In this document: positions 1-61,245 of the stretch, in pieces
Layout: each line of letters opens with the position of its first letter
Numbering within the stretch: the first letter of the stretch is position 1
Source: Styela clava
Lineage: Eukaryota
NCBI RefSeq assembly: GCF_964204865.1
Contig: NC_135257.1
Location: forward strand, 9,424,001-9,488,000
Direction of reading: 5' to 3'
Length of the DNA: 64,000 nucleotides
Made by a program: the position numbers and the translations under genes
The notes under the pieces: generated by a model
What the model was told of the DNA's origin: nothing
What the model saw: the letters and a program-made list of their open reading frames with translations, nothing else
The model's database searches: none

Positions 1-354
1 AAAGGCATACTTTTTTTTATAGATTTGACTATTTTTTTTTTGAAAACATTCAGAATGACTTGGCTCAGGTCACTTCAGCAAAACTAGATTTTCACTGAAA
101 TCACAAAAAGCCTCAGGTTGGATGACTCGTACAGCCCCACAATGTATTGCCGTTGCCTGACTAAATAGACTCAAATCAGGACATATATGCATATATATAT
201 GCCAGATGGCCTTGAACTTAAATTAAACTTAAATAAGCGACTCAACTATAACTAAACAACAAAAAAATTTAATTGAACAAAATGTCAATTTTAAGCAACC
301 CAACCCATTCATAACTGCATTCTGTCACATGAAATATTCCAATATGATTCATAC

Positions 355-3300
355 CTGTATTCTTTCTTAGGTTTTTCTTTCTTCATTGCAAGCAAATATT
401 GCGAAACTGAACTGGTTGGTGATGATGTCATTGTTTCTTTGCTGGGGCTGTTAGAGCTGAGAAGCAAAATAGACATGATCAAATATTACATATGAATTAT
501 AAAAACAAAAACAACTAAAAAAGGAATAATAAAAATTAAGTTTCATATTATTTAAGCACTTCCCTGATGGAAATAAATATTGATTTTGATATAAGAATGA
601 GGCACACTCATTAAAGGTGCATGGCCAAGGAAAGCCTGGGTCTCGTATAATTTCGCATCTCAAGTACTTCTAGTGGGCGTAGCATAACAATTTTAGCACA
701 TGTCAATCCTAACCCCACCATTCAAAAATTACGCCCATTAGGAGTACTTGAGGTTCGAAACTGCACAAGACCTAAAAGACGCAACTATGTTGGTTTCGCA
801 GGTAAAGATATCAGGTTTCAAACCCCAGATTCACAATATCACCCAGGTAAATTGAGCTCGTAGATCAAATCAGAAAGATTTTGTCCTTCTGAAAATACTA
901 GTCGCTCTGATCAGATAAACATTGGTATTAATGAATCTCAATTAAACTGACCTTATATTTTTTGTCATGGAATACAAATGTTGTTCAACAGAAGTGGATG
1001 GCGATGATCTTCCGAGTATAATTGAACCGTATGGATTTTCCCCAGCTGGATGTCCATTTCTTGCGAAATATTCTGCAAGTGATTCATGGTCAATTAAATC
1101 ACCATCAGGTCCTGAGGAAAACACATTTGGCTTGATATAGGATTTAAGGATTGTATTTACCAAAATGGTAAATATTTGGAATTACTTGTTGGAAAATTAA
1201 ATAACAATGTTTGCAAAACTTCAAAAATAACCAATTTCTTATTATATTAAACTTTTTTATTCAAAATTTTCTACATATTTAGAAGCGTGGTGTCGTAATG
1301 GTTGAAGCGTTATACTCAACCATGATGGCATCGCAGGCTGAAATATCAGATTCAGATACCATGCCCACCAGTTTACTCAAGATGTAACAAATAGCGTAGG
1401 CCATGCCAAATCATAAAGATTCCATTCTATTCAAAATAAGGTAGCTCCTACCGTATCAGTAGTGGCTTGTGCAGAGCAAAAAAGCATATAAATATGTCAT
1501 ATAAATAATTTCTCTGGTTTACATGTATAGCCTACTAACCTTGCCCTTCACCATTCTGCAAAAGCATTTTCAAAGCTCCATTTCTGTGAGGATTTCCTTC
1601 ACCCAGGATATGATTTAGTCTGCTTTGGTTAGAAAATTCAATAAGTGCTCTTGTTGCTGGGTTACTATCTGAGTTCGCTTGCTCTCCATTGCCAGATGAA
1701 TTTTCTGCATTTTCTTGTTTGATCAAAAGCTGATCGAAAAATGAGAAGATATATTTGGTCATTATATCATCTATATGTGCCTATTTTTAAATATAAAGTT
1801 CTATCACATTACACTGAGCTCTTGGATGAATTGACTTGGTATTGTAGAGAAGCTCACATAAAAATTTTTCGAAACGTTCGAAGCATCTAGTAAAGAATTT
1901 TTCGAAATGGCCCTCAGTCCCCCAAGGAGCAGTTCTCTAGGAGCCACAAGCAAATGACATCGCCCATTTCGATGACTATATTAATTTAAAGTAATGGCTG
2001 TGATTTGTTTAATTAAGTATTTGACTGCATGCATGTACTTTATTGCTTTCATTTGCTGGCGTTTTTTATTATTACTGTAATTGTGACACATAAAATAACT
2101 GACGAAAATGTGTTGACAAAGTACTGAAGGTGTTTGACGGGGGCTTCATTTCATGAGAGTTTGAGGACCATTCCCATTCGAGTCAACATCACTAGCCAAC
2201 TTGATGTCTTAAACTTATTCATCCAAAATAATGTAAAGGGACTCTTAAATTGCTTTCAGCATCTGACCAACTGATGTTTAAGAACTTGTGAAATTTGGGT
2301 ATTTTAGGAATTATTTATAATACAAAATATTCATCCACACTGCGAAGAAAAACTCACATTGTCTGATTTTCCTTCAGGACTCAAATCATGAGGTTCATCA
2401 TTGACGATAGGTGATCCAACACCAGTTACATCTTCACCTCGATTACTGTTTGTTCCTGATTGATTACCAGGTGATGGAGGTGTGTTTATTAGCTCGCATT
2501 CCTATAGAAAGAATTATATAGGATATTATATTATATATATATTTATCAACATAACCAGTCTTAAAGTAGATGATGGTGATTTGATATGATGACAGTTTTG
2601 TAGTTCCTATGTAATGTAAAAGGCAGAAACTACAGGAAAGTTTGGAAATCTCTACCGTTTGAGCCTACTTCATACATGAATCCTTTGGTGCATTTGTGCT
2701 GACCAATGGATAAATTTGTCCCTCATAATCTTATATGGTTAATGTAATCATGTCAAAGAGTGCTAACCAATGTGCCTTGTTGAAAATTAAAAAAAAAATT
2801 TGAGACCCTTTCTGTTGGATATTCTCAGGTTTTAATGAACTCTTATAAATAAAAATATGAAAGCAACAAATTTACCACAAGAGGCCACAAGACATTTGAT
2901 AAAAAATACCCTTTATAAGAGCAATTTGAGACAGTGAAAAGTAACATAAGTAAGAAAGTGAAAAATGACAACTTTGCAAATTGAAAATTCCATTTGCGAA
3001 ATTGGATTTTCTGTAGTTTAATAAGGTTTCTATTAAATTTACCTGATTGTCAGAGTCTTTGTTAGGAAGATATCTCTGATCAGGTATTGCAGGAAATGTA
3101 TTCTGAGGTGATACATGGCCATGAGTTACAATAAATTCTTGGCATTTGTCAACAACATATGGAATCTGTAGGTAGCAAGCTGAACATAATACCTGAAATA
3201 CAAAATAATAACTTATTTAAATTAAATGTGTAAGTAGCGTTTCTCAGTAAATACTTTTTTTTGAGTGACAAATCATGTATAAAGAGTGAATCGAATGCTT

Positions 3301-6300
3301 AAACATTATATCACACATGCTTTCGTCATATAAAGCAATTTCATTGAATGACTAAAACCAGAGAATTTCCCCAAATTGGGAAAACTATTACATCTTCGAT
3401 ATTTATATTCTATGCATTACAACAATGTGTAACAATACAAATGAATGGAATCATAAGTTTTCTCTGTCAAAATTGTGAAATTTGATGTGACGTAAGCTAA
3501 CTTTATCGTCCGTCCGTATATATGTGGACCAAGCATATTATTAATCAATCAAGATATCGCCTTCAAAAATTGGGGGACAGCCAACTTTTTGCAGAAGTAA
3601 CAACAATATAGAACTACCCGATATACTGATTATGTTTGAGTTATGATTGAAAATTGCATCAAATCTACAATTTATGTAACTATATTTTACAAAGTTTAAG
3701 CTTTTTGTATTGACATATTCAAATCATAAGACAAAAGGTACAAAGTTCCAAGAAATCATAGGGAAATGCCAACCAAGATCAGCCAATTAGTCATGAATCA
3801 CGAGGGGTTTGTATGGTACATACAAATTTACATTAACAAATTTGAGATGAAAAAGACAATAGGCACAATTGACGCATTTGTGTAGGCACTGCACTTACTG
3901 CTTAAGGATAACGGAAATAAGGGTTATATGCATGCGTGAATTCCGTGTCATATTGAAATTACCTCATGCAAAGTAAAATATAGCTAACATAGAAACAGAC
4001 TTTGTCATATTTTTTTATCTATTGAAATAACAACTCATCAACCACCTTGCTTTATTATTAGACCATGAAACACCACTTATCGAATATAGATCATAGCAAA
4101 TTCAAGTAAATGTACAAGAAATGTTTTAACATCTCTGGGGATCTTCTCTAAAGCGAAAGCGGTTACTAGTTACTACTTAACAAATTTGTTCATTTACGGG
4201 GGATCATGTAATTCACAATCTATCATCAGCATAGCAGAAATAGGATGGGGTAAACCTGAAACAAACCGGATAAAAGTAAACTATAAACTTTTTTGAGCTT
4301 GGAGTTACCAAAATTAATGAAATCCCCTAGGTGTGCTTGAACAAAAAAGAATGATACACTGAATGACACAAAAATGTTCCCATATTTCCCATTGTCCCTT
4401 GGGCATGATATCTCCTGAATTTCTCACATATTTTCAACACCAACCAACTTATCATCAAATTAGTTTAATATAAATTTAGAGATATTCCATTTGGATACAA
4501 CTTGGTAGACGCAACATCATTAATGCCAAGTATATGCAAACCAGAATGCTATATATAGGCACTACTGGAAAATTATCTATATTTCCCCAATCTAAATGAT
4601 TGCATTATGACATGAAAAGACATGTTTTAAAATTTCCTCCTGCTATGTATGGACAATGGATAGAGCAGAAATTAGTATCACAAGAATTTTTATTTGAATC
4701 GACTAGCAGGGAAGCGTACCCATTTCACGCACAACAGCATGAAATGTCATTCTGAACTTTTTTGAGACGATTTTACATATTCTAGAATGATTCTACCTTA
4801 TGAAGTATTAAAAAAACTATTAATAAGCCCCAATTCTAACGCCCTATTAATATTGCTTTTCACAGTATTACATGACGAAACACATGAACAATATCGTGAA
4901 ATTTACATGCCTGAAGCCAAATTGCTCCCAAAATTGAATGTATTAAATAAAGGTTATAATTGACCATATGTGTCATGCAATTTGCATAGTAGTAGGTCAT
5001 ACGAATCATCAATCCCTGACAAAAATTTTACAGGAAAATCGAGGTCAAACATAGCGAAGTCAAGACTTGTTAAAACATGTTTATTATTCAATCGAAAGCG
5101 TTGGCATTATTATTGGCGAAAGAACGTTAAACGATTTATTCAACCTAACTGCATTGTCGTGGGTGTCCAAAGCGCTGTTAACCAGTTACAATACATAATA
5201 CTCCGTCCTGGTTTAACCAACTTAATGACCTAAAAACCTCAAACGACCTCACTGAAATAATATAAATTGATGAACAGCGAATTAACATGAATTTAGCTAT
5301 CAATGCTTGCATTTACATTTTCCCGCCAAACCAAGATGGTCGCGCTCTCATACCTGTATGACCGGCCATTGATGTAGGGCGACACCGCTGCTCTGCACAG
5401 TACAATAACAAAATTATATTAACCACACAATGTATGGTATATCATAAATGATGGCAAACGATACGATATTTTTAACAGTACAAAATATTTAATATTAAAT
5501 CTTGTTCTGAATGTTTTTTCGACGGGGAAGAACGCCAAAAATCGTGACGTTTGTTTTGCGGGTTTCCGGACGTCAAATTCCGGCAATGCTCTCTCGTGAC
5601 CTGGACACAATCATCATGTTAATTCAGTTTGATTCATATAACTTTGTCGAAAAAAGGTTAGAAAAATAATGGGTATAACTAAAGCAGTCCACTTTATATC
5701 GATGTTTTTCAAATATTATTGCGTGTAGCTCCAGACATTGCCCATGGGGTATAGTTGAAAACGTAAAATGTATAAACACGAGTTTTTATCTTTGACTATT
5801 CTGATCATTGACCAAGATAATTTATATTACTGTATTATCAAAGCCTGTTTTGTCGTAGAAATGTAAGGATACAAAAAATTCCGAATTAAATTCGTTAATT
5901 CGATCGCAGCCGATTTATTTGAACTAAGAAAGTTAACTTAAACGGTAATCGCGGCCTTGTCTACTTCGATTCGTAAATTAATTATTAAGGATATTTTGTC
6001 ATCACCAACTGCGATTGTACATGGCTATGTACCAGAACAAATGGGATAAAAAATAAATATGATAGACGATGCCAAAGTCTAGTTTTTTGATGATGCGAGT
6101 GAGTCGATGTACTAACACAGTGGCAAATGTTTTTAGCACAATGTTCCTGTTTTTCGCACTAAAATTTCATAGAACCGCCCCGGGGCCTAACCGCCACTTA
6201 CGCGTGGCCTTGATCACCCACACCAATGCCATATGACGAAACGTCATAAAATTCTGAAAACAGAAAAACAACTCCTAATTAGGAATTAGACAGCGTTTGT

Positions 6301-9300
6301 AAAATTAATTTCATCTCAGAAAAGACCGCGAGTCTGCGACTGGGTGACGGAAATGATGATGGTAAAATGAAAATCTATTCGGGCCGGTCTGTGGAAAAAG
6401 TCGCCGAAGTCGTGTTATGGGAATGGTCCTTGGGGCATAAAATGATCAAAAACTGTATTTAAAATTCATTTTGGTTATAAATATTTTTTTTACAAGTAAT
6501 CGGTGCAATGTAGAGATGGTAAACCATTACAATCTTGAAAACACAGGTTATCATGAAAAGCAAGTTTTCATAATGCTTCTTTTTCAATTATTCATTTTTC
6601 AATTCAAACAGTGAAAACACACAAGAATATGTAGTATTTCATTTTTATCGTAAATGAAAACAGCATATTCAAAAATTTACTGTTTAATTATGAATAACGC
6701 ATTTGTGACGACGAGTGAAAATATTGCCGTGATGGTTAATTAATATATTTCCAATCATGTTCCGATTATATTCAATACAACGAATATTTTGGTCCGGCGC
6801 GTGATGAGGCCAATCACAGAAAATTAAAATAGCTGGGTGCTTCAGTAGTTTGGGCATAATTAGACAAACGAAACCATTACATCGATAACAAACGCTTTTA
6901 ATATTAACAGGACACGATTTCAGTAGCACAAAAATGCCTTAATTGGTGGGGATTACAAAGTGTTCCTGTTAGCCTTATTCTCGTGATTTCTAGAAGTAAT
7001 TTAGGCTCACTCGGGGCGATTTTTCTACATGAGGAACACGCACGCGCTTCTCATAACTTAAGAGTAAGAATAGCCAGAGGGGTTGTCATGTTTTTGGGTG
7101 GTAAGAAAAAATAACTGACGTCGGTCTGGGTGCTTAACAAAGGTTTCTGCGGAAAACAACACTAACAGCATATACGATGCCCTAGAGCAGTGATTCTGAA
7201 ATTGTTTTCCGTATTCTGTCTGTGCCCACCTTAAGTTCTGAGTTCCAACAAACATTCCACTTTTCAAAATTTGAAAATTAAATAAGGGGAAAAAATATTT
7301 ATTACCTCGGATATGTTAAACAAATGGTGATAACCGACAAGTAAAAAAATGTCGATTCATTTTTTCGTGGGATCGCTATTTGAGAAACCTTTCTCCTACA
7401 ATCCACAACCAAAGACGCATTTCATATTTTACTGGGCACGTGTGCAAGGTGTGCACTTTAATCCGCCGACTTCATGTCAAGACCAACCCAGTAATTTTGA
7501 TTTTCAATTGGGTGACTGGCGGTAATAATTACAATTCGGAGAAAAATGTAGATAATTCGCGATCCTTGGCCTGTCTTCCTATAAAAATTTTACTTTGCGA
7601 TAGCCCGGGGCCAGAACATTTCCGTGACCCAATGAAAAAGTTTCAGCTGAAAAGTAAAAATTAAATTAATGACGTTTTAGATTGTGAATAGAATATAACG
7701 AAAAGTGAAGTTTCGATTTTAAATTTGGCAAACATCACATAATTTAAGTCTGAGACTATTCGTTTATATTATTATACTATATAAACGACCAAATACTCGT
7801 TCAATGCCCGTTTAGAGTTAATCCGAGTGCATCCATATAAGATTTATCCGCGCGGTATGCCCGTTACAATTAATCACAACGGCATCTTCGTTTGACCCTT
7901 CATATAAATCGAACCCTGCGGCAAGCCAATACGATCCAACCACTTCACGCATCCGCGCAGTATCCTTATTTTATTTACCGCGAATAGCCTGCTCAATATT
8001 ATTATAACAATGGTAAAATATAATAAAGAATATCATATTCACTCACTCCATATTAGCGATGCTTGTTTGAAACATGAGACGCTAAGGACCTCTCCCCCGT
8101 TTCCCATACAATTAGTTTGTCCCCTGTCGGCCACAAGAGATTTTTCGACCCATGAGGATAAAACATTGTTCACGGAACGGTTTGAGTAGATGCGAAAATA
8201 ATGCCAATATCGCAAAGGCCATCCTTGGCCAAACGTTTACAAATTGCCAAAATTGTAAGATTAGCCAACTTTTTCACATCCAATCTATGATTGGCCGCAT
8301 ATATAGGTGTGAACTAATTGTGACAACTTGGAAATAGTTATCGATTAACGGTACTTCGTTTAGAAATGGTCCTACGTGTGAATATTTTATGTTAGGCGCA
8401 ACTATAACACCCGACTAATGTTTTAAAAGCAATATGACGTTTCCTCCGCGGTACCAAAAGCTCCCACAATAAATATATCAATATTATGCCGCCCCACATA
8501 CCATTAACTGCAGGAAACGCTGTGTGAATAACAACCGCGCGCGAAATGGAGACGTTTTAGCGTGGGAGTGTTAAATTAGCTGCCGACGACACCCGTTGGC
8601 CTATCTACTATATTAATTTTGGCCTGTTAGAGGAGTAAAATGCATTCAATATTGTAATTATACTACACACGATAATCTATCATTATTTGTATTTACAAAA
8701 CCATAATTTTGTATTATTGAATGTAATCGACATAAAAATTTGAGACTAAAATAAACAAATTCTCTACCAGTGCGAGGTTGCAGATTTTCATACGAAATAT
8801 TTTTTTTGTTAAATTGGTTAAACAAAATGTACCAAATGTTAAGTGGTAAGTGGTAAACGGCCCCATTATTAGCCATGAGCTTGGTCCGAAATAATTTTAA
8901 TTGTGTTACTAAGTTCGAAGATGAAAATTCCTGCGTCAAAGAGGCTAAATTCTCCTAATTCATCACAACGCAGCATAAATAATAACGACCATAATAGAAA
9001 TAAATTCACACACATTTCCCCTCGAATTTCAAATTTCGAAATCACCATAAAGCGTTCAATTGGGTATGTATGTTGTAAGAACATAATATCAATTGCGTTG
9101 CCAGCTAGGAATATCTCACTACACCCTAGGGAGTGTGATACACTATCATGGGAACAACAACACATCGACAAAGTGGGGTTTTTATTGTACGATTGACTGG
9201 TAACTAAACGGACTGGTTGTTCTCAAACACTTGAAAGATATACGGAGCGAGCTAACAGCGTCCCACTCCTAGATAAAAGTTGAATACCCTGTAGAGTACG

Positions 9301-12300
9301 CCGGCACGATTGAAATAACAAGCAAGATTAGCTATGAATGGCGTATCAAAGAATATCGACAAGGCATGGCCGAATAGACAACATGGATTAAAATGAACTA
9401 TTCATCGCCAGAAAATATGGGACGATGCCGGTGTTGTATTAGGAATATATAAATATATAACATATGGCATATACTAACAGTGCATCATTGGCCCAGGTGT
9501 AGCGGGGTCCATTTCGACCATATTTTCTATTCTACTTACGCAGTTTTACAATGAGGGTGAGGTCGAGCAGAAGGCAAACAATGGCGCAGCAGTCGTTCCT
9601 CCCTCGCTTGGGTGCCTATTGTGTAGTCGGACACGCCATTGTGCTACCCGTGGGGTTGTGCCATACGCGTTTTGGCACAATGGGATATTCATAGAGTGGC
9701 CTTTGATTCACACTGAAACGGAATTCTTTTCTTTTTAATTGCCGGGAGTAACATCGACACGAATAGCTTTTGATAGAGGGTTTACCCATACTTCGGAATT
9801 CAAAAGTATCCATTCCAATAGGAAGACTAAATTACTGACAATAAATTGAATATATGTCGGGTGGCGCGGTAAAAAGGTTGAATAACGCAGCCAAATAAAC
9901 CTCCCTACGTGCTGTGGCACATGACTCCGACTGGTTGGTTGCCTTAGGGTAAATCCTATCCTTGTAAGAATGTGTTCATTTCATCAGCATATACATATAT
10001 ATATATACGTCATTTGGTATGATGAAATCCAATTTGAAGATGGACTTAAATGTTCATCGTACTTGGTCATCGTCGAGATAAGAGTTTTGGGGAGTTTTTG
10101 GTGACTGACTGATTTAAATTACTGTATAAGAAAAAAGAACATAGAATGATTGGGAAATCACGTTTACTTATAAAAATTCTACTCGCGTTGTTCTATATAA
10201 ATTACCCGACAAGGTGTTCACCGCATAGTATTAATAATTTTTGTTCAAAGGAAAAACGGAATCGAAATGTCATGATCAGACGCCTCTTACATTTTCAACA
10301 TATAAATTATGTAGAGAAATGAGCACACAACACTGGCGCATACAGATTTATCTAGAAAGCTAGAATTGAAAAATGTGAATACCATTGAGTCAATGATGGA
10401 ATCCCCATTTGAGGGACAAGTCAATTTTGATATTTGAATAATATTATGACGATATTTTTAGAGGCCTCGTTTATATATTACAATCGCAGAGCTAAGCGTT
10501 AATAGGTGTTCTTGGTTGATTTCGTCAGATTGGGCTGTACTTTCAAGATTAGTGTCCTCTATCTTATGTCTCAATATGGAATAATATGCGATAAATCAAT
10601 ACTAAAATCCAGTGCATAAATATAACAGTCATCGCCCGATTGTCTCTTATAAAATACAAATGACATAAAACGGAAATGACCCAGTGCCATATCTCTGTAC
10701 ATATGGGATGGGTAGTGAGCGGCGTGGGATATATGAATCATATCATAAAACGTACAGCGAACTCCCATACAGCAGGAAATCATTAGAGCACACACGAACA
10801 TCGGCGCCAAATGAATACTTTGCTCCCTGTTTCGATTCGCGTCGTGGGTGTGTTAGCAAGTGGTAAAACAAATTATTTTGGACTTTGGAAGGCATTTTTG
10901 GAAGGCCGATAATTTTTGTGGGACAGTTTTAAATACGTAAAAATCATAGATTAGGTCAAATTTCACACTTCTTGAACTTATTCAGATTTAGGCAAATTTT
11001 GAACAAAACCATATTCTCAAATATTGCTGTAAATGAAGATGCCTTTACTACGGTTCCATTCAACCTTTGCATGTACTTGATTGAAAACAACTTGCGCGCG
11101 TGAAATGTAACATCATTATGACATGCAAACCCCATGCTTGGTCGCAATTACTAAAGAGTGAAGTAAAGAATGAGGAAAATAGGATTTAGTGGGTGTCCTC
11201 CACTCCCCATGGGAGGTCGATTGGAATATAAATAACAAACGCAACGCGGGAGTGCTCCTATACAGTCCGTTCCCTTTTTCTATGCTCACGTTAATTATTG
11301 ATGAAGCCCTTTTCTGAGGTTCAACAACCCCCGTTCCGTACTTAAGTGGGAACCGCGCTGCGCTATCCCATCGCACGAGGCGCACATACCCGACAACACC
11401 CAATGCAAAGGTATTTCGAATTTCAGCAACTAAAAAAATGACTATTGAAAAGAGTGGTAAAGTCCAATACACCGGGATATGTACCGATATACCAAGTAAT
11501 TCCACTGAAAATATAAATGTGAAATAGTTAGCCGAACTATGTATTTTAATTATTCACTCATACTAAACCAACTGGCTAAATTACCGCAAATGTGTACATC
11601 TGTGCAATACCCAAAGCCCGTAATGAACACAGCTTGCGTGAAATGAAAAGGCTATCAAAGTTGGCCGCAGATGTGCTTTGTTATAACCAACCCCACAGCG
11701 GGTTCGATTTTTCAAGTGGCCTGGAATTTCGGATCTGTATACTTAACATTCACCAATATCCACCCTCTTTCCGCTACGCGCTTCGCAGACCTTTCCTTAA
11801 TTGGCGGAAATTGAAGCCACTTGGGGCCTGGTCTGCAATAACACTACACCCTTCGCCTATTACGCTTATTTATATTGCGCCGTGTGGCATCAGGTACTTA
11901 AAGTTAATTATACTACGAAACCCAGTTTTGATCGACTTTCAGCAATAAAAACTGACGAGCGTCCTTTTGCCCTTGTTTTCATATTGGATTCGTTTTATTG
12001 ACCCTGCACATTCCCCGGGGTGGTGAAAAACAGAATGGAAAGATCGATTGAATTCCTCGAAGTGACCATAGCACTGCCAAATGCAATGACGCAAAATTGA
12101 AGATGTGGTTGAATAAGCGTTTCCCCTGTATCACAAAGTATTGCATAATACAATGATAAATAAAGGTATCGATCAAATGTGAGAAATTACAACAGATCAT
12201 CATAAACATGTAACATTCAACTAGACAGGAGGCCCCGGTTATTTTACACCTGTCCCGAATATAATCATTTCGAAGAATCATTTTTATCGATTTACACCTC

Positions 12301-15300
12301 TTATATATACAAATATGTAACTTTATGTTCATCAAACCTAATTTTAATCGTAAAAAGATGGATTTAAAACACAGATGCGTAGTTTAGATATTGATCAAAC
12401 TTAGTTGGCGTTAGTTATAGTTGCCCGTTTCCGTGCAACGGCTAAACCGGGGTGTACACATAACACTACATCGAGTGTAGCGTTTTATCGTGCTCGCCTT
12501 TGGTCTACCGGAAATCGGGGTTACGCAAGTGAAACGCGATTTAGAACGTTCAAAATAGGCGCTTAACCTTGTACATACTGTATATGCATTATGGTACTGC
12601 CTACCAACAATGGGAGATCTAACAATAACGTAACGCGACAATGCCACGGTTTATCGAAATTTGAATATATGTGTTCGATGAAAAGTCTGACAGTGACTAT
12701 TTTCATTTAAATTATAATTGACTGTTGTATTACTGGAATGACGAAACTGCGACCAGTAAAGTTATCAGTTACGCAAAATATCTCCTATTGCACAATATTA
12801 ATGTTGCGTGTGGCGCATTAAAATTAAAACACGATTTCTGATTTCATTTTACATTTCGGGGATACTTTACCAAGAACGAAAAGACTGCTTGTTGGGCGAC
12901 ATTAAGATGAATGAGTCACCGAATATGGTTCAAATACCATATTGGGATATACCATACATGAGGTACTTATTGTCACAACGAAAACGGGAAATTCTGTAAG
13001 TTAGTTGGCCCGATGAACATGGGTTATCAATCTTTGTGAAAATCGTTACCATCTACCAAAAAGTTGATCTGAATGGTAAACTGACAACCCGGAAATGTCC
13101 TTTCCAACAAATGGCAATATTTCAATTTCTTAGATACACGAGATGGCCCACATATTTTGAAGAAAATCGAGTTACATAAAGATACTTCCAGCTACAGCCC
13201 ATATTCGGCAGTGCCAAAATAGGCGAAATTTTTCTCTTGATTGGAAAATTTTGCCTTTCTCCCGCATGCTCCAACTAAACCAGTTATAACTTGGAGGCAC
13301 GACAACACATATTTTTCACTTCCGATCATTAAATTAATCCTCAATCCATTAAGTTCAAAAATTTGCTTTGTCATTTTGACCCGATATTTCAAGTGTTTTG
13401 GGATAGCAATTTTGCACGCGATATGAAGTTTCGGTTTGTGACTGACCCGATCTAAATTTATCGTGTTTTATTAAGTTGGGTGAAAGCTTTGCGTCATATT
13501 TTCCATTCGCGTGTCAGAGAGACATAAAATTATAATTTTCTGATTAAAATTTATTACGGTAATTAAAATAAAATGCTGTAACTATTGTAATCCATATCGA
13601 TTACAGTTCTGGGAATGTTATAAACGGGATAATTTACATCGATATAAATATAAAGTTTCGTATTGCGGCGACAGTTGCAAAGTAATATTTTACAATTTGC
13701 AAATTACAATTAATAACTTTACTTAGTAGTTCATCGAAATAAATCATACCATGTAAAGCGTTAGAAAATAACCGAACAGGACATTTTCCTGGAGAGGATA
13801 AGGAGTGAGTACTTATCACAAAGAATTTACAAATTGAATTCATCCAAACTCACGTATTTCTGTATGCTATTTGACCGTGAATCAAAAACCGAACAAAAAC
13901 AGCACAGAGATGGAGAAAGGGTAAAAATGATACGCAGAGTAATAAATTTGAATGCCCACTTATTAGGTAAAAAGCAAAACGACATTACGCCCATGGGCGA
14001 AGAATCAACGAATTCGTTGCAATCGAATCAATAACCACGTGACCAGCTATGGTTAGAACAATCGAGAACTTCGGTGAGGTACTTGGAAAATTTTATTGTT
14101 TTTTAATTCGGACTACTTCCCTTGATAGCATGCAAATAGTTTTATATCGTAACAGGATTGCCTTTCTAAGGTTTTGGTAAACTTATGTCTATCCACATAA
14201 ACGTTATAATATATGAACAGTGTTTCAAGGATCCGTTAAAGTTCGAATCTGTAATACGTATTGTAACATACAAGACAAATTATTCACTTCGAGAGGTAAG
14301 TTCAATTAACCGATCTATTTAATAAGTAATATCTTCTAAACTGAAGATTGGATTATCTGCTCCACAAAAAGAATAACGTGAAATGTTGTTGTCAACAGCA
14401 GTGTCTGTTTTCCGACCCAAATCGATTGACTCTATTTTGAACTCAAAACGAACCGCAGACTTAATTAACTTACAAATCTGAGATAGAAAATTAAATGTTT
14501 GGTTAAACGCATACAGTCAAGTATAAATATCCTTAACTATAGATATTAAACTAGATATAGTGGAAAAGTCACAAAAAGGGTTCCAAATTTGAGGGTATTA
14601 ATTTTTTATATTTTTAATATATCGCATGATTGTCTAGCATAGGAAAAATCCACCAGAAATACCAGCGGAAATACCCCATTATGGAAACAATCCACGGAAG
14701 CTAACAAAATCGGGTACGCGCCCATTCAGATTGACTCATTCAACGCCAATACAATGCATAATACCATATGTGGAAAACATTTCAACCTCGGAAAGGGCCT
14801 TTCATTAGTATGACCGAGGTCGCGCAGGGTTATGAACCCCAGACCTCGAACCTAAATGTCCCAAATCAACCTCATCCGTTTATTCATTTTTCATAAATAA
14901 ATGGCTTCCGCGTTCGAAAATATCTAACTACCTAAAATATACATTGAATCGTCGATTAAGTGGACGTTTTTTTCCTGTAAAAATATAATGAAATGGAGTT
15001 TAAGGAGAACGGATTTTTTTTTCGAATTAACACGTCCATAACCAGGAGTAAATTTCGCATAAAAAAGGAATCATACGTAAAATTTGGTACTACAATCGTT
15101 TAAAAAAATCATCAATGCAAAATGGTGGTTATTTTGAATGATCATTAGAGACACTATATTTAGGAATTATGCTATCTTTTAAATTAACAAGTCCGATAAA
15201 CAAACAGCAACACGGGATTAAAAAACAAACTAAAATACTGCACACGTTTTTGAAAATTCACCGATACGCGATATGAAACTACGTGATGGCATTTTGGCAA

Positions 15301-18300
15301 AATCCATTATCCATATTCCAACAATATCTGATGGAAGGCATGACTGCACGAACAGTTGGGGTGAAGCGTCATTTCCCAGAAGATTAAATTTGCATATTAT
15401 AAACCTGCAGTCATATTTAAAAACAAAAGCAAATTTCATATTTCTGAGTTAATTCATATGAAAAAAACTAAAAAAAAAAACTGATAGCGAAACACCACAA
15501 GTATAAGTGTGCGAGCAAGAATGGCGTCACCATAAAAATGCTTGTTCATATACAATAGTATGGGGTATGGACTATTCATGTCGCGAAATGAAAAGGTTAA
15601 ATTTTGAACCTTTCCTATTAAAGTACACAGGATCAACAAATAAAAGGAACGCCAGTTATTTCCGTTTTATCCAATTTGACTAGTAGGTAGGTGATTGATA
15701 AAAACGTCAGGTAATTCAAAAAGAAATGTGGAAATTTTACCATTTTCTGAAAAGGTGACCTATCACTACAGGAGACAAGGGTGCAATATTTCGCAAGAGT
15801 TTGTCTCGTTGGGTAATCACGAAAATTCAAAGGTCGATATTGCCTGTCATTTGTCACGTGACAATGCGGTAATTCATCAATGTTATAATTATGTATGTTT
15901 CAATCACCACACTAAAAAGTCTCCAGTTCACAGATTATACCAAAAAGCTATATTGGTTGATGATATAAATAAAATACTAAGCGAAAATGTTTTAGAGACG
16001 CTAATGGCAATTTGAGGTAACAAATGTAAACTCCGCACCGAGTCCGATACACGTCGTCGGCGAATAGAAATATTGCATCTTAATATAAAACAAACAATAA
16101 CGAACAACAATATTTTCATACAGAGGTTGGAACAGAAAATTTATACCCGAATGGAAGCGACTGAAAAGAGCGCTTTCAAGTATTATATAAAAACAGTCGT
16201 CTATCCGCTTATATCGGCCTACAAACCTTTTGAATAGTACGTAAAAGCTCCCGTGGGGAGGTCCCTTGAAATGGAATCGCTATAAAACCAAGCGTAAGAA
16301 ATACCGAGAAAGGAAGGGCCATTACCCGCCTATGAGACATCTGGCGCCAAAATGAGCTTCCACGAAGAGTATGGATCGGGTCTTCCAAATCCCATGGGAA
16401 ATGTCGTTAAGTCATAAATAACAGTTTCCAAGTGGAACCAGGGTCGTTTGGGGATATGTACCAAATGCGACAGTTGCTCATTAACATTTTATAACAGAAA
16501 AATCAGCTGTGTCAGCGGCATATTGAGGTAATTAGTTGGTGGTAAAATTCGCAATTGCGATTTTATCCAATTTGATGTTTAATAGTTTTTCCATTCTTAT
16601 AAGTGTATCCAAAATTTTGAATTTATACACAAAAATTTCATATATAGCAAAGCTGAGATTATTTTCAAAGGCTTACAAAGAAAATGAATAACCTTCACGT
16701 AAAATCTGTAGGGTAAAATTAATCACGACTTGTCAAAATGCAGAAACTTTCAATCACCAGCGACTGGCCCATGTTTTGAAAAAGTTTCTCATTCATTAAT
16801 CTTTCTACCTTTAGCAAAGAACTCGAGACCTTGATTTAAGCAGTCCTGCATCAGAAAATGAAAATGTGGTGGCATCAGAAAACGTTTGATTACGACAGGG
16901 ATTTACTGTATACCATCTCGTAATTACCCCATATCTGATTTATTTATATGTTTTCTATGATTCTATTTATCTGAAGTTAGGATATGTGAGGTTACTCGAC
17001 TACCTTTTCACTTATCCTGACTTGACTTAAGATAAACACGATGAAAGGTGACAACTAAGATAATTAGAGGTGGGGCAGTAACAAGTTAGCGTCGAAAATA
17101 TATATCGAACTTCGTTCAATTAATCCAGTTCCTTGGTGCGACTTCGAACGCGCAATTCAACAAATGAACTGCGGTACAATTTTGCATCGTTATGGATAGC
17201 CAGGTGGACATTCTAACAGGTTCTAGCAAACACAAAGAATAAACGAAGAAAATTTGGTCACACCATTATTTAAAATTTTCGCATTTTTTTTTTAGAAATG
17301 TTTTTTCATCACATTTTATTGTAATTTCGTGAAAAGTACCAACTATGAGAACGCACGATACCACATGGTTTAATGTAATTCTTCAACATATCAAAATAAT
17401 ATTAACAGCACTGGTATTGAAACAGGAGAGGGCGTCATAGTTGTAGCGTACAAAGCATAGATCATGATTTCCGCCCCCACAGGCTGCGTCAACGCTTGTT
17501 CCATAAGAATTCGTGATAGAGGCTTGTATCGATCTATGCGCACGCCCTGCAGGGTCAGCTGCTTCATGCTTAAGATCAATAGAAGTTCTAAACCTTCCCA
17601 GGAATGACAATGCATGAATCAAGACCGAATATCATGATTCACATATGGGCCGTACATAAATGGGTCTAAGGAAGACTCGGGGTCGAAAGCTTTACGTGTT
17701 TATACATTTCACGAACGAATTTCATCAGCGCCGCGGGCGATCAATTTTGTTTTTGCGCTGGGGTCACAGCGGGCCTTTTGTAGTCGTAATTCTAATACAA
17801 AAACCATTTCGGGACGTTTACAAACGAACGAATCGTGGTGGGTACGGGTTTCACGACTCGTCAACGCGTTTTTAAGGCCCATAAATTTTTTATTACCTCG
17901 TGAGGGTGATAGTACCGATTGGCTAGCGAAAACATGAGTTGCGCCATATTTGTTGAACGACGAAACGACCCACTCAATGGGCGTTAGAACTATTTGTAAT
18001 GTAAAGAATATTTGCGAAATGGGGTTAGAAACGATATTGGCAAACACACTACACCCCTGGTAGAGAGGTATACTATGTGTTCAGCTAACAATAAATACGT
18101 CTGTTACTACATTTTGGCATAAATTTCTCCCTACCTTTTCAACCTTGGAGGGAATCGCTGGAAATACATTAATCGGGAATAGAAATACATTCGTAATATC
18201 TTACCGCATAAGGAATTCGCAATACCGTCATTTAATTTTGGTACTTGCGGTTATAGCCTTACAGAAAGAATACAAAATATATAACCTTCAAGGTTAATTA

Positions 18301-20989
18301 ATCATTCAACAACAGCCATATACTCTCATTTGGAAAAAAAAAATTATAATGTGTATATGATTACGAAATATTTCATTTCCAAGTAATTCATGATTTCAAG
18401 ATTTTGAGACATGGTCATGCCTGTTTGGTTAGAGTTATTCTGAGAAACATGGCTACATTGAAAATTACCAAATTAAAAAACGGCTCAAGATATTTAAATG
18501 CAGGACATGCGGTAATTAGCAAAACAATCGGAGCACGAAGCCGGCGACCACTGTCGTTTTAGGGCAAATTGGTAAAATCTATCCCCCAAAAATAGCCAAC
18601 ACTTCTTTTTCAGATATATATGAATACAACACTTGTTTTTATTTATACATTACCGGTTAACCGCAAACGGTCTTGTTAGCTATCATACACACGATTGTAT
18701 CCGATTTTCATTTTATTCATTTACATAAATTACATTTAAAATTAAACAAAACTTAGTTGAATTAAAATTAAACTAACTTGTAAGATTGAGGAAATTGTAA
18801 ACGGCATCCGTCTGTTTGCGTTTAAATATAACAAATAAAAACTGCCATCATATAGTCACTTCCCACGCATGTCAAAGTTAAATTTTTAGACAGGGGTGAA
18901 TAATAATCGTGTATGTACCATGACACATTTGCAACGATCGGTATTCTAGGTATTATGAGTATTCGAGTATGAAAAGTTTTTGAACTATAGTTGCACTTGG
19001 AATTAGAACTTAAACGTGAAATCTATTTTCGCTCAGATTGCGGTTTTAGCTCTAAAAAATGATCCGTATTTAAAACACGTTAGACAGTGCTTTTGAAGTG
19101 CTTTCCCGGGGACATAAAATGATATTATCGCGAAAAAAGAACCGTGGAAAGTCGAAGCATAAACTTTGTCCCGCAAAAATCCTCAATCATCTATCAGCTT
19201 TTGCAGCTAAATACGAACTGTTAAAAGGACTATGTTATTAAATTTGACAATTCCTGTGATACATATCGAAAAAGTAATTTACTCGAAAAAGCAAATAAAT
19301 TTCTGTTTTTTTTTTGTCTTGGCCATTACTCTTCCCTTCGGGATCATTTCAACGGTTACGGGGCGAAATTTTTTATCGTTATTTCCCCGGTAATAGAGGC
19401 AATCAAAGTGACCCTCAAGAACCACAATGCCTCGGGCGGCAGTAAAACACGATAAATTAAGTTTCAAGTACGGAGTTGTTTTCCAAACTATAGGTGTTTT
19501 TATGTACGCCTTTTAATATCAGGTAAAGAGCTATTTAAAAGCGATCACGTCACGAACCTATGCTTCCAAGTGCAAAAGTATGATACTAGTAACAAATCAC
19601 ACAAAATAACAAAAACACAAATCGCCGCAAGGGAACACTTAACGATGTCGAAAACTTTAAGATTTAGGATAACTGTATAATTATGCAAAGCCAGTCCCAA
19701 TCACTACTGATTGCCACAGCATAAATTCAGGTCTTTCCCAAATTGGATTCAGCTTGCTAAAAACTGCTGTGTGGTGCAGCAAATAATATAGCATCGATGC
19801 AAAGCATGGCGCTTCACTTATAGTTCTGACTTGACAAAGATTAATAAACAATAAAAATCCAATTAATGTCAGGAGGCCACAAATAATCAGTCATTGATAA
19901 AATATATCAAAATATCATATTGCCCGTGTGGCAAATTTAAAGCATAGCATTTTTGGAGCCTCTTCTCTTTTTCCTTCTTTACAACAAAAAGTTAGGGTTA
20001 GTAAACCCAGTGTTCAACATCCATAATACAAAATGTTGATGATTATTAAAAACTTGACAAATGACACATTTAAAATCATAATAACAACACCATCCTTTGC
20101 TAAAATAGAGTTCTTTTTAAAAATAAGGCAGGCATCCTCTAAATTGAATTTATTTGATTTATCAGTATATAAAAAATATGAAAACAAACCTGCATGACAG
20201 AACTTTGGCTGAGACATAACTGTGATGTGTAGATGAAATCAAGAACTTTTGCAAAGCCGACACTATTGACAATCATCGGAATTTCAATGACATCTTTCTT
20301 CACTTGTTTGTTAGGGTTCAGAAACAGATCCCTAAAAACGTATAAAGATTAACCCATTGTGCTAAGAATAAATTGAGGTGATAAAATATATATAAATATA
20401 TGTACTTCAATTACTTGATAGTAAGCACTTGGACACATCAGGTTCGGCTTGATTTACTGACCCCAAATTCATATAGTCTTCCACGAAAATGAAAACTATA
20501 TTCCCATATCATTAGACACTATAATTTTAAATACATAAATATTAAGTACCTGAAATAACCCATTGCAGATGCCAGTACATTTGTATGAGCTTTGAACAAA
20601 TGGCCTTGTACTCGAACTGTGATATCGCATAATTGACCCTGAAATATTAAAATATTAAAAGACTCAATGTGAAATAAATTATACCCGGTGTATTGAAGTC
20701 AGCAATTATCACAGAAAATCAACACCAATCAAGTGCTTAGGTCGGGTTAGGTTACTGTCCCGCCTTGTCCTGATTTATGATAGATAAACAGAATTAAAGA
20801 AAACCAGTAGGAAATTAATTAATGTTGGAGCAACGAGAAGAGCAATGACTAAACTCTGAAACTATGCAATAAAAAAATTATATACAAAACATATATTAAA
20901 TAAATCACCTGCAGCCTTTGTTCATTTAATCCCATTAACAAACTTGAAGGATGCTCAACTGATTCACAAACGTACATTCGGGTTGCCAT
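355..20989 (-). CDS. BTB/POZ-domain transcriptional regulator (ZBTB/NACC-like), multi-exon, 3' end beyond the left edge of the window
   Basis: Phase-consistent GT-AG exons 20989-20909, 20638-20550, 20331-20190, 3192-3043, 2501-2358, 1729-1540, 1111-952, 456-355. They splice to MATRMYVCESVEHPSSLLMGLNEQRLQ|GQLCDITVRVQGHLFKAHTNVLASAMGYFR|DLFLNP...GFAKVLDFIYTSQLCLSQSSVMQ|VLCSACYLQIPYVVDKCQEFI, a complete N-terminal BTB domain, followed by a low-complexity S/P/N linker containing an IKQE SUMO-type motif. The last visible exon ends KPKKEY(R/S), compatible with a C2H2 finger following, but that part is not in the window. Confidence 0.9.
638..772. mobile_element. Short MITE/foldback element in a BTB-gene intron
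   Basis: Imperfect inverted arms of about 43 bp: GGTCTCGTATAATTTCGCATCTCAAGTACTTCTAGTGGGCGTA ... TACGCCCATTAGGAGTACTTGAGGTTCGAAACTGCACAAGACC. Confidence 0.6.
1281..1480 (+). mobile_element. Possible degenerate tRNA-derived SINE fragment
   Basis: A-box-like head GAAGCGTGGTGTCGTAATGGTTGAAGCG resembles the SINE head at 54339; the B-box is degenerate and the boundaries are approximate. Confidence 0.3.
5300..19600. promoter_or_regulatory. CpG-retaining, non-coding, TF-motif-rich block inside the 17-kb BTB intron (putative enhancer region)
   Basis: CG dinucleotides are visibly frequent compared with the CpG-poor flanks (1-5000 and 19700-21300). No credible ORF and few recognisable transposons. 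Clusters of Sox, TCF, COE/EBF-like, CSL-like and TAATTA motifs. Function is inferred. Confidence 0.5.
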
Positions 20990-21579
20990 TTTTGTTTCCT
21001 TCTCAATCTTTCCCACTGCGAATTGTAGAAATATAAAGAATGCAGACTATTCAATCAACTTCTTTGTTGGTATGCACAAATATTTGCTCAGAGGTTCCAA
21101 CTATCACGTATCATGCATGTCTTTATACTGATATAAGCTATCTACACACCAATTTTTTTTATCAAATTATCTAAATATTAATGCTTTTGGTATTGGTTAC
21201 TCATAAACAGCAATGAAACCTTAATACAGTAATATGTACAAATGTTTAAAATTCTTCTGTTATTTCAGTATTTATCATTTTAAACGCTATCTATCTATGA
21301 TGGGGTCTTCAAAAAGTTATTAGTTATTGTCCCTTCATACTGAAAATATCTTTATAACGCTGTATTTTAGGAGCATTGTATCTATTGTCATCACGGATGC
21401 ACAATCATTCAACTTTAAATACCAGAACACATCCCCTAAAATATTGTTATAGCCTAATTCCCGAGTTAGGAAGAAGTCAAATCTTAGAAAACTTCTATTT
21501 CTGTAATGGATGTACGATGTACCCAAACCTCTGCATGTACACAACATTCTCTAAATTGTCATAGGCCTACCCATAATCA

Positions 21580-23300
21580 TCCCGTTATCGATCGTGTTGT
21601 CATTTCACATCTATTACCCTACTTAGCTCGGAGCTGAACGTTCGCACGGCCAACGCGATAACGAACGCGCACCCTGCTCGTTTCACCCTGCGCGTAAATT
21701 TAGGCTCAGGCGGTCTCGTCTGGTCGAGGATTATTGAGATTTGCAGATCTAACACGGGTCAGTAAACCCAAACGTAAACATGTAGTATTCTAGCTCTGTA
21801 TCGCCGCTTTCGGTAATATTTTCATCGGCATTGACTATGGCCGTCCGCAGTCAGCACAAAGCATTGACAAAAGCTAATGAACATTTCAAATATGACGATT
21901 CAACAATTGGCTAGTTTCACAAAAACTAAAATAGAACAATACCCAGATATCTCTCCACTGCGTAGGTACCGTAATTGTGTACCATGGCTATGCATGTGTT
22001 ACCCGGTTGACAAAAATAAACCCATACCTTCCTTAGTCGCTGATTTGGACAAATGATTATTTGAAATAAATTCATATGTAATTATATTTTCGGGACCTAA
22101 TATATTGCAATTTGAAGGCACATGTTATCAGAATCATTCTCAGTAAGAACCATTATGTCTTGTAATCAAAAATATGCCGATAAAAGGTGAATTCAAATCG
22201 TTGAACCATTGGCATACCGGTAACGAATTCATGATAAAAATTTGCGATAAAAGATTTCCGAAGCAATTGCCATTTGTGCTACCCGAAGCCAGTATTACTT
22301 TAATTTGATCCTGAACCTATTTCAAAATAAATATATCTGCAGCAAATAACATGGCAAGTTTTTCTCATTTATGAATTCCCGGTGACACTTTCAAAAAAAT
22401 TGTTATGCTGTTTTGTGAAGGGGAAGATGATATTACCAAGTTTAAAAAGTTAAAATATGCCTTGACAATACTACAATGGATGTTTCTTCGATCATCTAAG
22501 CATGGGTGTAAACATTGGCCCGTTTCGATTTGGGTTCTATTTGACAGTTTTTGGTTATGTTTTCAAAATTTAGGCATATATCGAACGACCTGAAAAAGCT
22601 TATAGCAACAAATATCTGAGATTACAATCAATGCCGTTACGTATATATGTGCTGCTCCAACTTGCATTAGTCAAAGATCCAATTACATTACATTAACATA
22701 TCAATGCCATTGAACAGTGGTGGTAATTGATTTTTGGGGTTATGTCTCTCGTCTTTTTGAATCAGTCTAGACATGAAAAACTATATTCATGATTTTTCTC
22801 ATCGGTGCGAATAAAAGGTTTCGAATGCCTTTTTTATTAATTTTTTTGAGTATTCTACATTGAAAATGTGAAACAATTAAATGTTAATTTGAATGCATTA
22901 GATTTTGAATAGTGGAATTTTATTTTTTTATTTTTATTTTAAGAAAATCGAGCCGTCGAGTATGTTATCATCCATGCGGAATCTCGCTCTAACTCTAACA
23001 TGTGTATTTTCCCATTATACCTGATGTAGTGTATTGTAGTTAAATTTACTGATTTTAATTAATAGCTGGACTTCGAAAAATGCTTTTCATATCATTTCTA
23101 CTCCATGTACTTAGATTCTACAATTGAAACGCGATAATTAGACAGGAGTATCGGGCGTCATGAAAACTATGAAAGGAAATGCATTGATATTCAGTGATAC
23201 AGGTAGGTCTGCGTGTTGATTGGGAACGCGGACAGGTAGGAGGAATTATTTTAGCTGATACCGGTAGGCCTAGTAGTCGGGAACAGTACAGTCATTACAC
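21580..23300. promoter_or_regulatory. Probable divergent promoter region for the BTB gene (-) and LRRC57/TGS1 (+)
   Basis: Lies between head-to-head start codons (20989 on -, 23672 on +). CpG-rich patches at about 21580-21860 and 23130-23290; reverse CCAAT box (TGATTGG) at about 23217-23223. Confidence 0.45.
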
Positions 23301-23605
23301 ATTTCTGCGTTTAGACATTGCTGCATTAGCTGTTTCAAACAGACTTGTTATTGTTTTGCGAATTATTTCGAGTTTATTGTCTTTACCCGATGGTAACTTG
23401 GTGCCATGGATACTGAAATGAGTTTTATTACAGGGATGAATGAAAGTTTGCAATTTATAGAAAGAGCAGAAGAGTGAGCCCAATCGAAAAAGATTAAGGC
23501 CTGGTTTAAATAAAGCTGTTTTCAGTGACCGAATTACAGTATTGGGAAGAGATTCATAATAAAGGTTGAAATTGGAGGTCAAAATAAAATTTCTAAGCTT
23601 ACTAA

Positions 23606-24391
<786 letters not shown>

Positions 24392-61026: not shown

Positions 61027-61245
61027 ATTGACAAAATTTACCTTGATTTTTGAGTAAAATTATATTTCCCAACTATTATTTACTGTTTTGAAGTGCTGAA
61101 GAAAAAATAGAATCAAACAAGTATCTGATTTGATTCCATAAATAACTGTTATAAGCAAATGATAAAATTAATTGCTCACATTTTCAGCCCAAGTTGAATA
61201 GTCTGATCAATGAAATATAAAATAATAAGATTACTCAAGATATAT

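What the first reader, a model, noticed from the sequence alone, without database searches (positions are those of the whole stretch)
3193..20189. A 17-kb intron cuts through the BTB domain and holds a 14-kb CpG-retaining non-coding island
Seen: the BTB domain is complete only if exon 20331-20190 (...SSVMQ, phase 0) splices to 3192-3043 (VLCSACYLQIP...), giving a 16,997-nt intron, while the other introns of this gene are under 700 nt. The ORF track misses the BTB domain entirely. About 5300-19600 keeps many CpGs, has few recognisable transposons and no credible ORF, whereas the exon-bearing ends of the same gene are CpG-poor. Known: invertebrate gene-body methylation erodes CpG, and genomic regulatory blocks place enhancers of developmental genes inside bystander-gene introns. 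Inference: this is an unmethylated enhancer block, or a nested lncRNA locus, whose target may lie left of the window.
Basis: partly seen in the sequence, partly recalled or inferred. Interest (0 to 1): 0.7.

Follow-up and report, generated by a model that had tools for sequence, protein, structure and literature searches.

The report
Transposon-free regulatory intron in sea squirt
A sea-squirt transcription-factor gene really does splice out a 17-kb intron whose 14.6-kb core is single-copy, shows no detectable transposon and is rich in CpG, a layout also seen in a distantly related sea squirt, so the core is likely an unmethylated block of switches that controls this same gene, though that function is untested.

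Summary
The gene is Styela clava LOC120345327, a BTB protein with two zinc fingers. The 16,997-nt phase-0 junction is in 6 of 6 RNA-type runs laid (3 studies). The core (about 5,040-19,650) has CpG o/e 1.22 against 0.46-0.58 at the gene's ends.

CpG retention is not special in itself: o/e near 1 is this genome's default (median 0.96 in 40 tiles). What stands out is that the core lies inside a CpG-eroded gene and has no detectable repeat. It sits in the longest repeat-free run in 664 kb, like homeobox flanks (7 of 40 tiles repeat-free, against 0 of 40 background tiles).

A contig of a distant ascidian has the same exon and donor, no next exon within 10 kb, and the same CpG step (0.3 to 1.04) about 450 nt into the intron, with no alignable DNA.

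No outside target was found nearby, so the likeliest target is the gene itself. Methylation, enhancer activity and target are inferred, not measured. The scan's notes held nothing on this locus.

The parts
20909..20989 (-). First coding exon of the ZBTB gene (codons 1-27)
   Evidence: Model against P0001; the 270-nt joint downstream is in RNA contigs
20550..20638 (-). Second coding exon (BTB, codons 28-56)
   Evidence: joints
20190..20331 (-). Third coding exon (BTB, to codon 104); donor of the long intron, phase 0
   Evidence: the same exon borders appear in other ascidian genomic sequences P0003 and P0010
3193..20189 (-). 16,997-nt GT-AG intron
   Evidence: Joint in 6 of 6 RNA-type runs laid and 0 of 2 DNA-type runs
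19651..20189 (.). CpG-poor 5' shoulder of the intron (about 540 nt), inferred methylated
   Evidence: Change point at 19,650; o/e 0.23; the matching shoulder in L142 is about 450 nt
5040..19650 (.). CpG-retaining, single-copy core with no detected repeat; inferred unmethylated cis-regulatory block
   Evidence: o/e 1.22; 1 candidate in each; 0 dispersed hits in 1.464 Mb
9577..9690 (.). Four Sox-type sites (MACAATRG, motif recalled) within 130 nt; candidate enhancer
   Evidence: Only such cluster in 1.464 Mb; picked by eye, so post hoc. Three looser sites cluster in L142 (7155-7251), but the alignment is not significant
3193..5039 (.). CpG-poor 3' shoulder of the intron (about 1.8 kb), inferred methylated; single-copy where searched
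   Evidence: o/e 0.58-0.61; 1 candidate for 3193-4900
3043..3192 (-). Fourth coding exon (end of BTB); acceptor of the long intron
   Evidence: the same acceptor position appears in P0014, P0017, P0019, P0020
355..2501 (-). Coding exons 5-8 (2501-2358, 1729-1540, 1111-952, 456-355); six more exons, with the zinc fingers, lie up to about 4.1 kb left of the window
21580..23530 (.). CpG-retaining stretch between the ZBTB gene and the head-to-head LRR gene; inferred shared promoter region
   Evidence: Change points; LRR ORF at 23606-24391

Best explanation
This is a spliced 17-kb intron of a conserved ascidian BTB-zinc-finger gene, and its single-copy, repeat-free, CpG-rich 14.6-kb core is likely an unmethylated block of enhancers that likely acts on this same gene's promoter. 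Shown: the splice, the CpG step at both ends, the lack of detectable repeats, and the same intron position and 5' CpG step in a distant ascidian. Inferred: (1) the exon-dense ends carry germline gene-body methylation, which eroded their CpG; (2) factors bound in the core keep it open and keep methylation out, although polymerase reads through it; (3) insertions there are purged because they disrupt the elements; (4) the elements add stage- or tissue-specific control to a broadly expressed gene; (5) the elements have turned over in sequence between distant ascidians while the block stayed in place.
For: Splice and gene model. CpG step with the matching TpG/CpA excess at the ends.

Repeat absence: 1 candidate in each of 5 searches, against 4,657 in the control. 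The run 736-27373 (26.6 kb) is the longest repeat-free run in 664 kb; the next is 12.4 kb. Tiles of 10 kb with no hit: 7 of 40 beside homeobox genes and 0 of 40 background tiles (Fisher p 0.012). The 29 background tiles with o/e at or above 0.9 average 7.4 repeat intervals each.

Conserved layout: L141 and L142 (99.9% alike, one observation) carry the exon at 72% identity with AG/GT borders. None of the three neighbouring exons is found in the 5.9 kb upstream or 10 kb downstream (best scores 34-45, against 198-226 for the exon that is present). CpG o/e is 0.30-0.39 up to about 450 nt past the donor and 1.04 over the next 9.5 kb. The upstream intron there is at least 5.9 kb and stays CpG-poor, so that length alone does not give CpG retention. 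A Clavelina gene model starts exactly at the downstream exon (P0014), an indirect hint that the intron is long there too.

Self as target: the host is a BTB-ZF factor, and no other developmental factor was found nearby.

Published context: in Ciona, 94 of 103 regulatory genes are unmethylated and 7 are intermediate, and a promoter inserted into a methylated intron stays unmethylated (PMC3827831). Ciona conserved elements lie in introns of their own target genes, Meis and Hex (PMC3836708).
Against: There are no methylation, chromatin or reporter data. No conserved element could be aligned between Styela and L142: blastn gave no intron match better than E 0.65, nhmmer gave no hit at E 0.05, and there were 0 same-strand shared 14-mers. 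Only 10 kb of that intron is held.

A k-mer classifier of homeobox flanks is weak (AUC 0.56-0.60). The intron scores at or above the homeobox mean, but that carries little weight. Among 30 motifs none stands out clearly, and Fox sites are depleted. The Sox cluster is post hoc, and its L142 counterpart aligns no better than other windows (score 30 against a best of 31).

The repeat-free run also covers the neighbouring CpG-poor exonic DNA, so the lack of repeats is not confined to the core. The L142 core holds a probable small repeat element near 14.0-14.3 kb. The local repeat library is 0.39% of the genome, and I chose the homeobox loci (20 of 105 matches) and the background tiles (round coordinates) by hand. 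CpG o/e near 1 is the genome default.
Confidence: 0.55

Rival explanations
1. Neutral long intron: methylation only reaches 0.5-2 kb from exons, so the middle of any long intron keeps the genome's default CpG level, and the lack of repeats is local chance or a low insertion rate.
For: The core's o/e is near the default. The shoulders hug the exons. No sequence is alignable with L142. The repeat-free run extends beyond the core.
Against: 0 of 29 CpG-rich background tiles are repeat-free, with a mean of 7.4 intervals per 10 kb. An intron of at least 5.9 kb in the L142 gene stays at o/e 0.31-0.39. Length at this position and the 5' step recur in a distant ascidian. In Ciona, gene bodies are reported as almost wholly methylated or wholly unmethylated, introns included (PMC3827831 section 6; passages).
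Confidence: 0.17
2. The core is kept unmethylated by an internal promoter: a nested lncRNA, a small-exon gene, a tunicate-specific small RNA, or an alternative start that gives a zinc-finger isoform without an intact BTB domain.
For: In Ciona, a promoter inside a methylated intron creates an unmethylated patch (PMC3827831). Short unspliced RNA-type contigs lie scattered across the intron. A nested-gene arrangement was noted about 17 kb left of the window (note e1-9556107; pentraxin and cupin hits).
Against: 0 of 300 ORFs reach a Pfam cut-off. The best codon-usage segment scores 10.3, inside the simulated null (mean 8.6, maximum 13.1), although only 6 of 11 true exons score that high. There is no Rfam match at a gathering score and no tRNA. 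The published promoter patch is about 1.8 kb, far shorter than 14.6 kb.
Confidence: 0.14
3. Genomic regulatory block with the ZBTB gene as bystander: the enhancers act on another gene outside the window.
For: The host looks broadly expressed, as bystanders are: it is spliced in 6 of 6 runs, has CpG-eroded exons and sits head-to-head with an LRR gene. Bystander introns often hold conserved elements (PMC5728398 passages). Several regulator classes (nuclear receptors, T-box, Ets, signalling ligands) were not scanned genome-wide.
Against: The nearest homeobox match on C9 is 3.2 Mb away (150 of 170 candidates scored) and the nearest bHLH match is a weak one 2.9 Mb away. Forkhead and HMG matches are farther. 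Flanking ORFs with Pfam hits are pentraxin, cupin, lipid-binding, chitinase, acyl-CoA dehydrogenase, HDAC, TAF-like, CYFIP-like, GAPDH, sulfotransferase and integrator families. The left flank is repeat-rich and tandemly duplicated.
Confidence: 0.11
4. Artefact or foreign DNA: a mis-assembly, two paralog halves, or a large transposon or viral insertion.
For: The DNA runs may be the assembly's own source, and no single listed contig spans the whole intron.
Against: The exact junction is in 6 runs. A DNA contig bridges exon 4 and 10 kb of the core, and overlapping contigs continue past it. The core is single-copy, has no transposon or viral Pfam domain, and the layout recurs in another species.
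Confidence: 0.03

Closest known systems
RefSeq LOC120345327 (XP_039270670; earlier name 'ZBTB8A-like'); orthologues Ciona NP_001072024.1, Phallusia 'ZF(BTB/POZ)' CAB3267864.1, Clavelina LOC143448623
   Same: The window's exons give P0001 letter for letter; the automatic annotation already holds the joined protein.
   Different: I found no description of the intron's content, CpG pattern or conservation in the library. The vertebrate orthologue is not settled; PDB hits span many BTB-ZF proteins.
Mosaic gene-body methylation in Ciona, including 7 of 103 'intermediate' regulatory genes (PMC3827831: passages, section 6, supplement 2 read)
   Same: Sharp CpG-poor and CpG-rich domains; a regulatory gene only partly covered.
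   Different: Here the CpG-rich part is a 14.6-kb internal intron core with CpG-poor exons on both sides. What I read does not say where the unmethylated part lies in those 7 genes, and no BTB gene is named in its Table S2.
Intronic conserved non-coding elements of Ciona Meis, Pax6 and Hex (PMC3836708: passages read; supplements searched, no BTB or POZ entry)
   Same: Non-coding intronic DNA of a transcription-factor gene proposed to act on that gene.
   Different: Those elements are defined by alignment between two Ciona species, and some were tested in reporters. Here nothing is alignable at the distance available and nothing is tested.
Genomic regulatory blocks (PMC5728398: passages read) and transposon-free regions (term seen in search listing 88 only; definition recalled)
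   Same: A long stretch without detectable transposons at a transcription-factor gene.
   Different: No array of conserved elements and no separate target or bystander pair is shown.

Membership tests
BTB-zinc-finger (ZBTB) gene | N-terminal BTB domain plus C2H2 fingers in one spliced reading frame | tested here: met
   Pfam BTB 21-128 and zf-C2H2 on P0001; exon model; junctions
Genomic regulatory block | Array of non-coding elements conserved in sequence between species | tested here: inconclusive
   None alignable with the one distant ascidian, of which 10 kb is held; no close relative's genome was available
Genomic regulatory block | A developmental target gene in cis | tested here: inconclusive
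   The host is a transcription factor, but its developmental role is unknown; no other candidate found
Genomic regulatory block, bystander form | A separate target gene near the host | tested here: not met
   Four factor families absent within 2.8 Mb; ranked flanking ORFs are housekeeping, metabolic or immune. The scans are partial: 150 of 679 ORFs, and 140 drawn from lists of 1,599 and 1,120
Genomic regulatory block | Synteny of target and neighbours kept across species | not testable with these tools
   The rest of the L141/L142 records could not be searched; no other ascidian genome is held
Transposon-free region (definition recalled: 10 kb or more without transposon sequence) | At least 10 kb without detectable interspersed repeats in a repeat-rich genome | tested here: met
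   against control 32. Old, diverged repeats could be missed
Unmethylated domain of a mosaic methylome | CpG o/e near 1 with sharp borders to CpG-poor, TpG-rich gene body | tested here: met
   L142
Unmethylated domain of a mosaic methylome | Measured absence of 5mC | not testable with these tools
   No bisulfite or nanopore data
Enhancer cluster | Open chromatin and reporter activity | not testable with these tools
   Only weak sequence proxies
Nested lncRNA or nested gene | An independent transcript with its own start inside the intron | tested here: inconclusive
   Contigs show presence, not absence; coding and Rfam scans negative with limited sensitivity

The most novel reading that the evidence does not exclude
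A position-conserved methylation-exclusion domain: across distant ascidian lineages, one intron of a transcribed, body-methylated gene has kept a domain of over 10 kb free of germline methylation, with a border about 0.5 kb past the same splice donor, while its sequence turned over completely. The boundary would then be set by regulatory function or splice-site position rather than by conserved sequence, and the locus would be a natural test bed for what targets invertebrate gene-body methylation.
Probability: 0.3. Interest if true: 0.62.

Novelty: new member of a known kind. Interest (0 to 1): 0.4.

Why it matters
If right, it marks an uncharacterised, ascidian-wide BTB-zinc-finger gene as having a regulatory landscape as large and as insertion-free as those beside homeobox genes. 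It also gives one transcription unit that holds both CpG-eroded and CpG-retaining domains with sharp, apparently conserved borders. That makes it a clean place to test whether transcription alone directs gene-body methylation or whether bound regulatory DNA excludes it. The separate ingredients (mosaic methylation, intronic enhancers, transposon-poor regulatory DNA) are all known.

Tried and rejected
Nested transcript in RNA contigs. No canonical splice joint inside the intron, and none from inside it to the 3192 acceptor, appeared in the 6 RNA-type runs. Only short unspliced pieces at depth about 2-5 were seen, which may be pre-mRNA or DNA. Contigs cannot show absence, so this counts neither way. 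No listed run is on record as RNA; I treat six as RNA because their contigs are spliced.

Odd joints, rejected as short chance matches or artefacts: 7670/3189, the 17357/17419 fold-back, 16026/16071, 10006/16096 and 7797/9989.

RNA families. Rfam gave 1 match at E 0.79, far under its gathering score. ARAGORN found no tRNA. The hairpin scan of 110-nt windows gave a best MFE index of -0.93 in an AT-rich stretch near 6593, with no shuffle control, and was not pursued.

Cross-species alignment. Six-frame blastp, nhmmer, shared k-mers and windowed alignments between the two introns gave nothing above background.

Sequence signature. The k-mer classifier and 30-motif table were too weak to use.

Constraint from polymorphism. 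Not measurable, because the DNA runs are nearly identical to the assembly from 1,500 to 18,139.

Expression. The Styela transcription-factor supplement (PMC8122590; passages and supplement rows seen) has a row with the same generic Ciona name, but I could not tie it to this gene, so I took no expression data from it.

Other. The whole-intron genome search was not scored. The remainder of the L141/L142 records was not searchable, so that intron's full length and 3' border are unknown. The bacterial promoter scan was irrelevant. PMC13345969 (passages) gives context on gene-body methylation in Nematostella but has nothing on this locus.


Full report
Identity. The window is G000:C9:9,424,001-9,488,000 of a 377-Mb genome. 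The exon at 20190-20331 retrieves P0001, RefSeq LOC120345327 of Styela clava, on a contig of the same length as C9. P0001 has a BTB domain (21-128) and C2H2 fingers. Orthologues occur in Ciona, Phallusia, Clavelina and unnamed sources.

Gene model. A GT/AG-constrained fit reproduces P0001 with 14 coding exons and introns of 270, 218, 16,997, 541, 628, 428, 495, 735, 461, 472, 779, 409 and 676 nt. The long one is phase 0, after codon 104. Three introns interrupt the BTB domain, so the split itself is unremarkable.

Splice evidence. Contigs skip exactly 16,997 nt with CT..AC ends in 4 of 4 runs and 2 of 2 more. These are 6 of the 9 RNA-type runs listed, from three studies. The two DNA-type runs do not show the joint and cover 30 of 30 bins; one contig runs 1500-15515 with one difference and the next continues to 18139. 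They may be the assembly's source, so they show consistency rather than independence. Mis-assembly and paralog halves are very unlikely.

CpG. Change points fall at 5,040 and 19,650. CpG o/e is 1.22 inside, 0.58 and 0.46 in the stretches on either side, and 0.48 over 1-4650. TpG/CpA o/e is 1.08 inside and about 1.3 outside, the pattern expected from deamination of methyl-C (the chemistry is established knowledge). A second CpG-retaining stretch, 21,580-23,530, lies between this gene and a head-to-head LRR gene. CpG o/e near 1 is the default here: median 0.96 in 40 background tiles, 29 of them at or above 0.9, and most of the 120 kb left of the window is the same. So the core is a hole in an eroded gene body rather than a CpG island above background.

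Repeats. Five own-genome searches covering 3193-20100 each returned only the locus itself, while a 4-kb control gave 4,657 candidates. Against a local library of 1.464 Mb the intron had 0 dispersed hits. It lies in a 26.6-kb run, the longest in 664 kb; the next is 12.4 kb. Fully repeat-free 10-kb tiles were 7 of 40 beside homeobox genes, 0 of 40 background and 2 of 66 in the 664 kb, one of them this intron (Fisher p 0.012 for the first two). Limits: the library is 0.39% of the genome, the tiles were hand-chosen, old repeats can be missed, and the run extends over neighbouring exonic DNA.

Nested content. 0 of the 300 longest of 313 ORFs of 30 aa or more reach a Pfam cut-off; 12 had sub-threshold matches. 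The best codon-usage segment is within the null, with a test that only 6 of 11 true exons pass. There is no Rfam match at a gathering score and no tRNA. A short-exon gene or a non-coding RNA is not excluded.

A second species. A scan of metagenome contigs gave L141 and L142, which are 99.9% alike and count as one observation. The exon has AG/GT borders and a peptide 72% identical to Styela's, scoring closest to Phallusia among the three named orthologues tested (226, against 206 and 198). No neighbouring exon lies in the 5.9 kb upstream or the 10 kb downstream. CpG o/e is 0.39 upstream, 0.30 over the exon and the first 450 nt or so of the intron, and 1.04 over the remaining 9.5 kb. In Styela the step lies about 540 nt past the same donor. 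The upstream intron there is at least 5.9 kb and stays CpG-poor. No DNA or six-frame similarity between the two introns rises above background. The same intron position shows in genomic ORFs P0003, P0017, P0019 and P0020 and in a Clavelina model that begins at the downstream exon; these give position, not length. The 3' border in the second species is unknown.

Sequence signature. Four Sox-type sites at 9577-9690 form the only such cluster in 1.464 Mb, but I picked them by eye. Three looser sites cluster in L142, at a background rate of 10 clusters per 1.464 Mb, and they do not align significantly. A homeobox-flank classifier reached AUC 0.56-0.60 only. These are leads, not support.

Target. 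No homeobox (150 of 170 candidates scored), Forkhead, bHLH or HMG match lies within 2.8 Mb on C9. Pfam on 150 of 679 ORFs in the left 120 kb and on 140 more ranked ORFs from both flanks found pentraxin, cupin, lipid-binding, chitinase, acyl-CoA dehydrogenase, HDAC, bromodomain/TAF-like, CYFIP-like, BTB-PHR, GAPDH, sulfotransferase and integrator families. The only sequence-specific factor found is the host itself. Other regulator classes were not scanned genome-wide.

Mechanism. Most likely (0.55) the core is the gene's own cis-regulatory block. Broad or germline transcription would methylate the exon-dense ends, bound factors would keep the core open and unmethylated, and selection would remove insertions. 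Each of these steps is inferred. Rivals are a neutral long intron (0.17), an internal promoter or nested RNA (0.14), a bystander block (0.11) and an artefact (0.03).

Literature seen. PMC3827831 (passages, section 6, supplement 2): sharp methylation domains, 94 of 103 regulatory genes unmethylated and 7 intermediate, and a promoter protected inside a methylated intron. PMC3836708 (passages; supplements searched): intronic elements of Ciona Meis, Pax6 and Hex. PMC5728398 (passages): definition of regulatory blocks. PMC8122590 (passages, supplement rows): 12 ZBTB genes in Styela. PMC13345969 (passages). Eight searches (listings and abstract starts only) showed no paper on this locus. The library lacks most subscription journals, so Ciona browser tracks and older expression catalogues may already cover the orthologue.

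Verdict. A real, annotated long intron with a constrained-looking, probably unmethylated core whose layout is shared with a distant ascidian. It is a new member of a known kind, with interest 0.4.

Noticed in passing
window 37942-39000 (+) and L001:14-796 (+): A multi-pass membrane-like ORF (receptor-like by eye; no Pfam match at the thresholds) has a close paralog about 10 kb left of the window. Chitinase genes (GH18; a chitin-binding domain at window 50.7-51.2 kb) also occur on both sides (window 42.8-51.2 kb; L007), which suggests a local duplication around the ZBTB gene.
   Followed up: partly
window 59626-61059, 23606-24391; L011:7902-9230; L037-L038; L041:6055-9927; L051-L052: Several housekeeping-type genes here are long uninterrupted ORFs (RRM protein, LRR protein, acyl-CoA dehydrogenase, bromodomain/TAF-like, CYFIP-like, integrator subunit 1), while the ZBTB gene has 13 coding introns.
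   Followed up: no
window 55712-57253 (-): A 513-aa ORF with hAT dimerisation and DUF4371 matches, a hAT-like transposase.
   Followed up: no
window about 44010-44400 and 45180-45360: A high-copy element of about 400 nt with matches on most chromosomes; the 4-kb stretch that holds it gave 4,657 candidates.
   Followed up: partly
window 1500-18139 versus 18140-21499: Both DNA-type runs match the assembly almost perfectly up to 18139 and show many second alleles after it, like the edge of a homozygous tract.
   Followed up: no
window 952-1111: RefSeq isoform X2 (P0005) lacks 13 residues at the start of this exon, consistent with an alternative acceptor.
   Followed up: no
window 21015-21450: One RNA contig joins 21015 to 21350 with non-canonical ends, while others stop at 21061-21172; the 5' end of the gene is unresolved.
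   Followed up: no
L142:3-293, 1444-1700, about 14000-14360: Two palindromic elements of about 270-290 nt in the CpG-poor upstream intron and one probable small repeat element in the CpG-rich core of the second species.
   Followed up: partly
window 17340-17445: A short inverted repeat coincides with a fold-back joint in one low-depth RNA contig; probably a library artefact.
   Followed up: no
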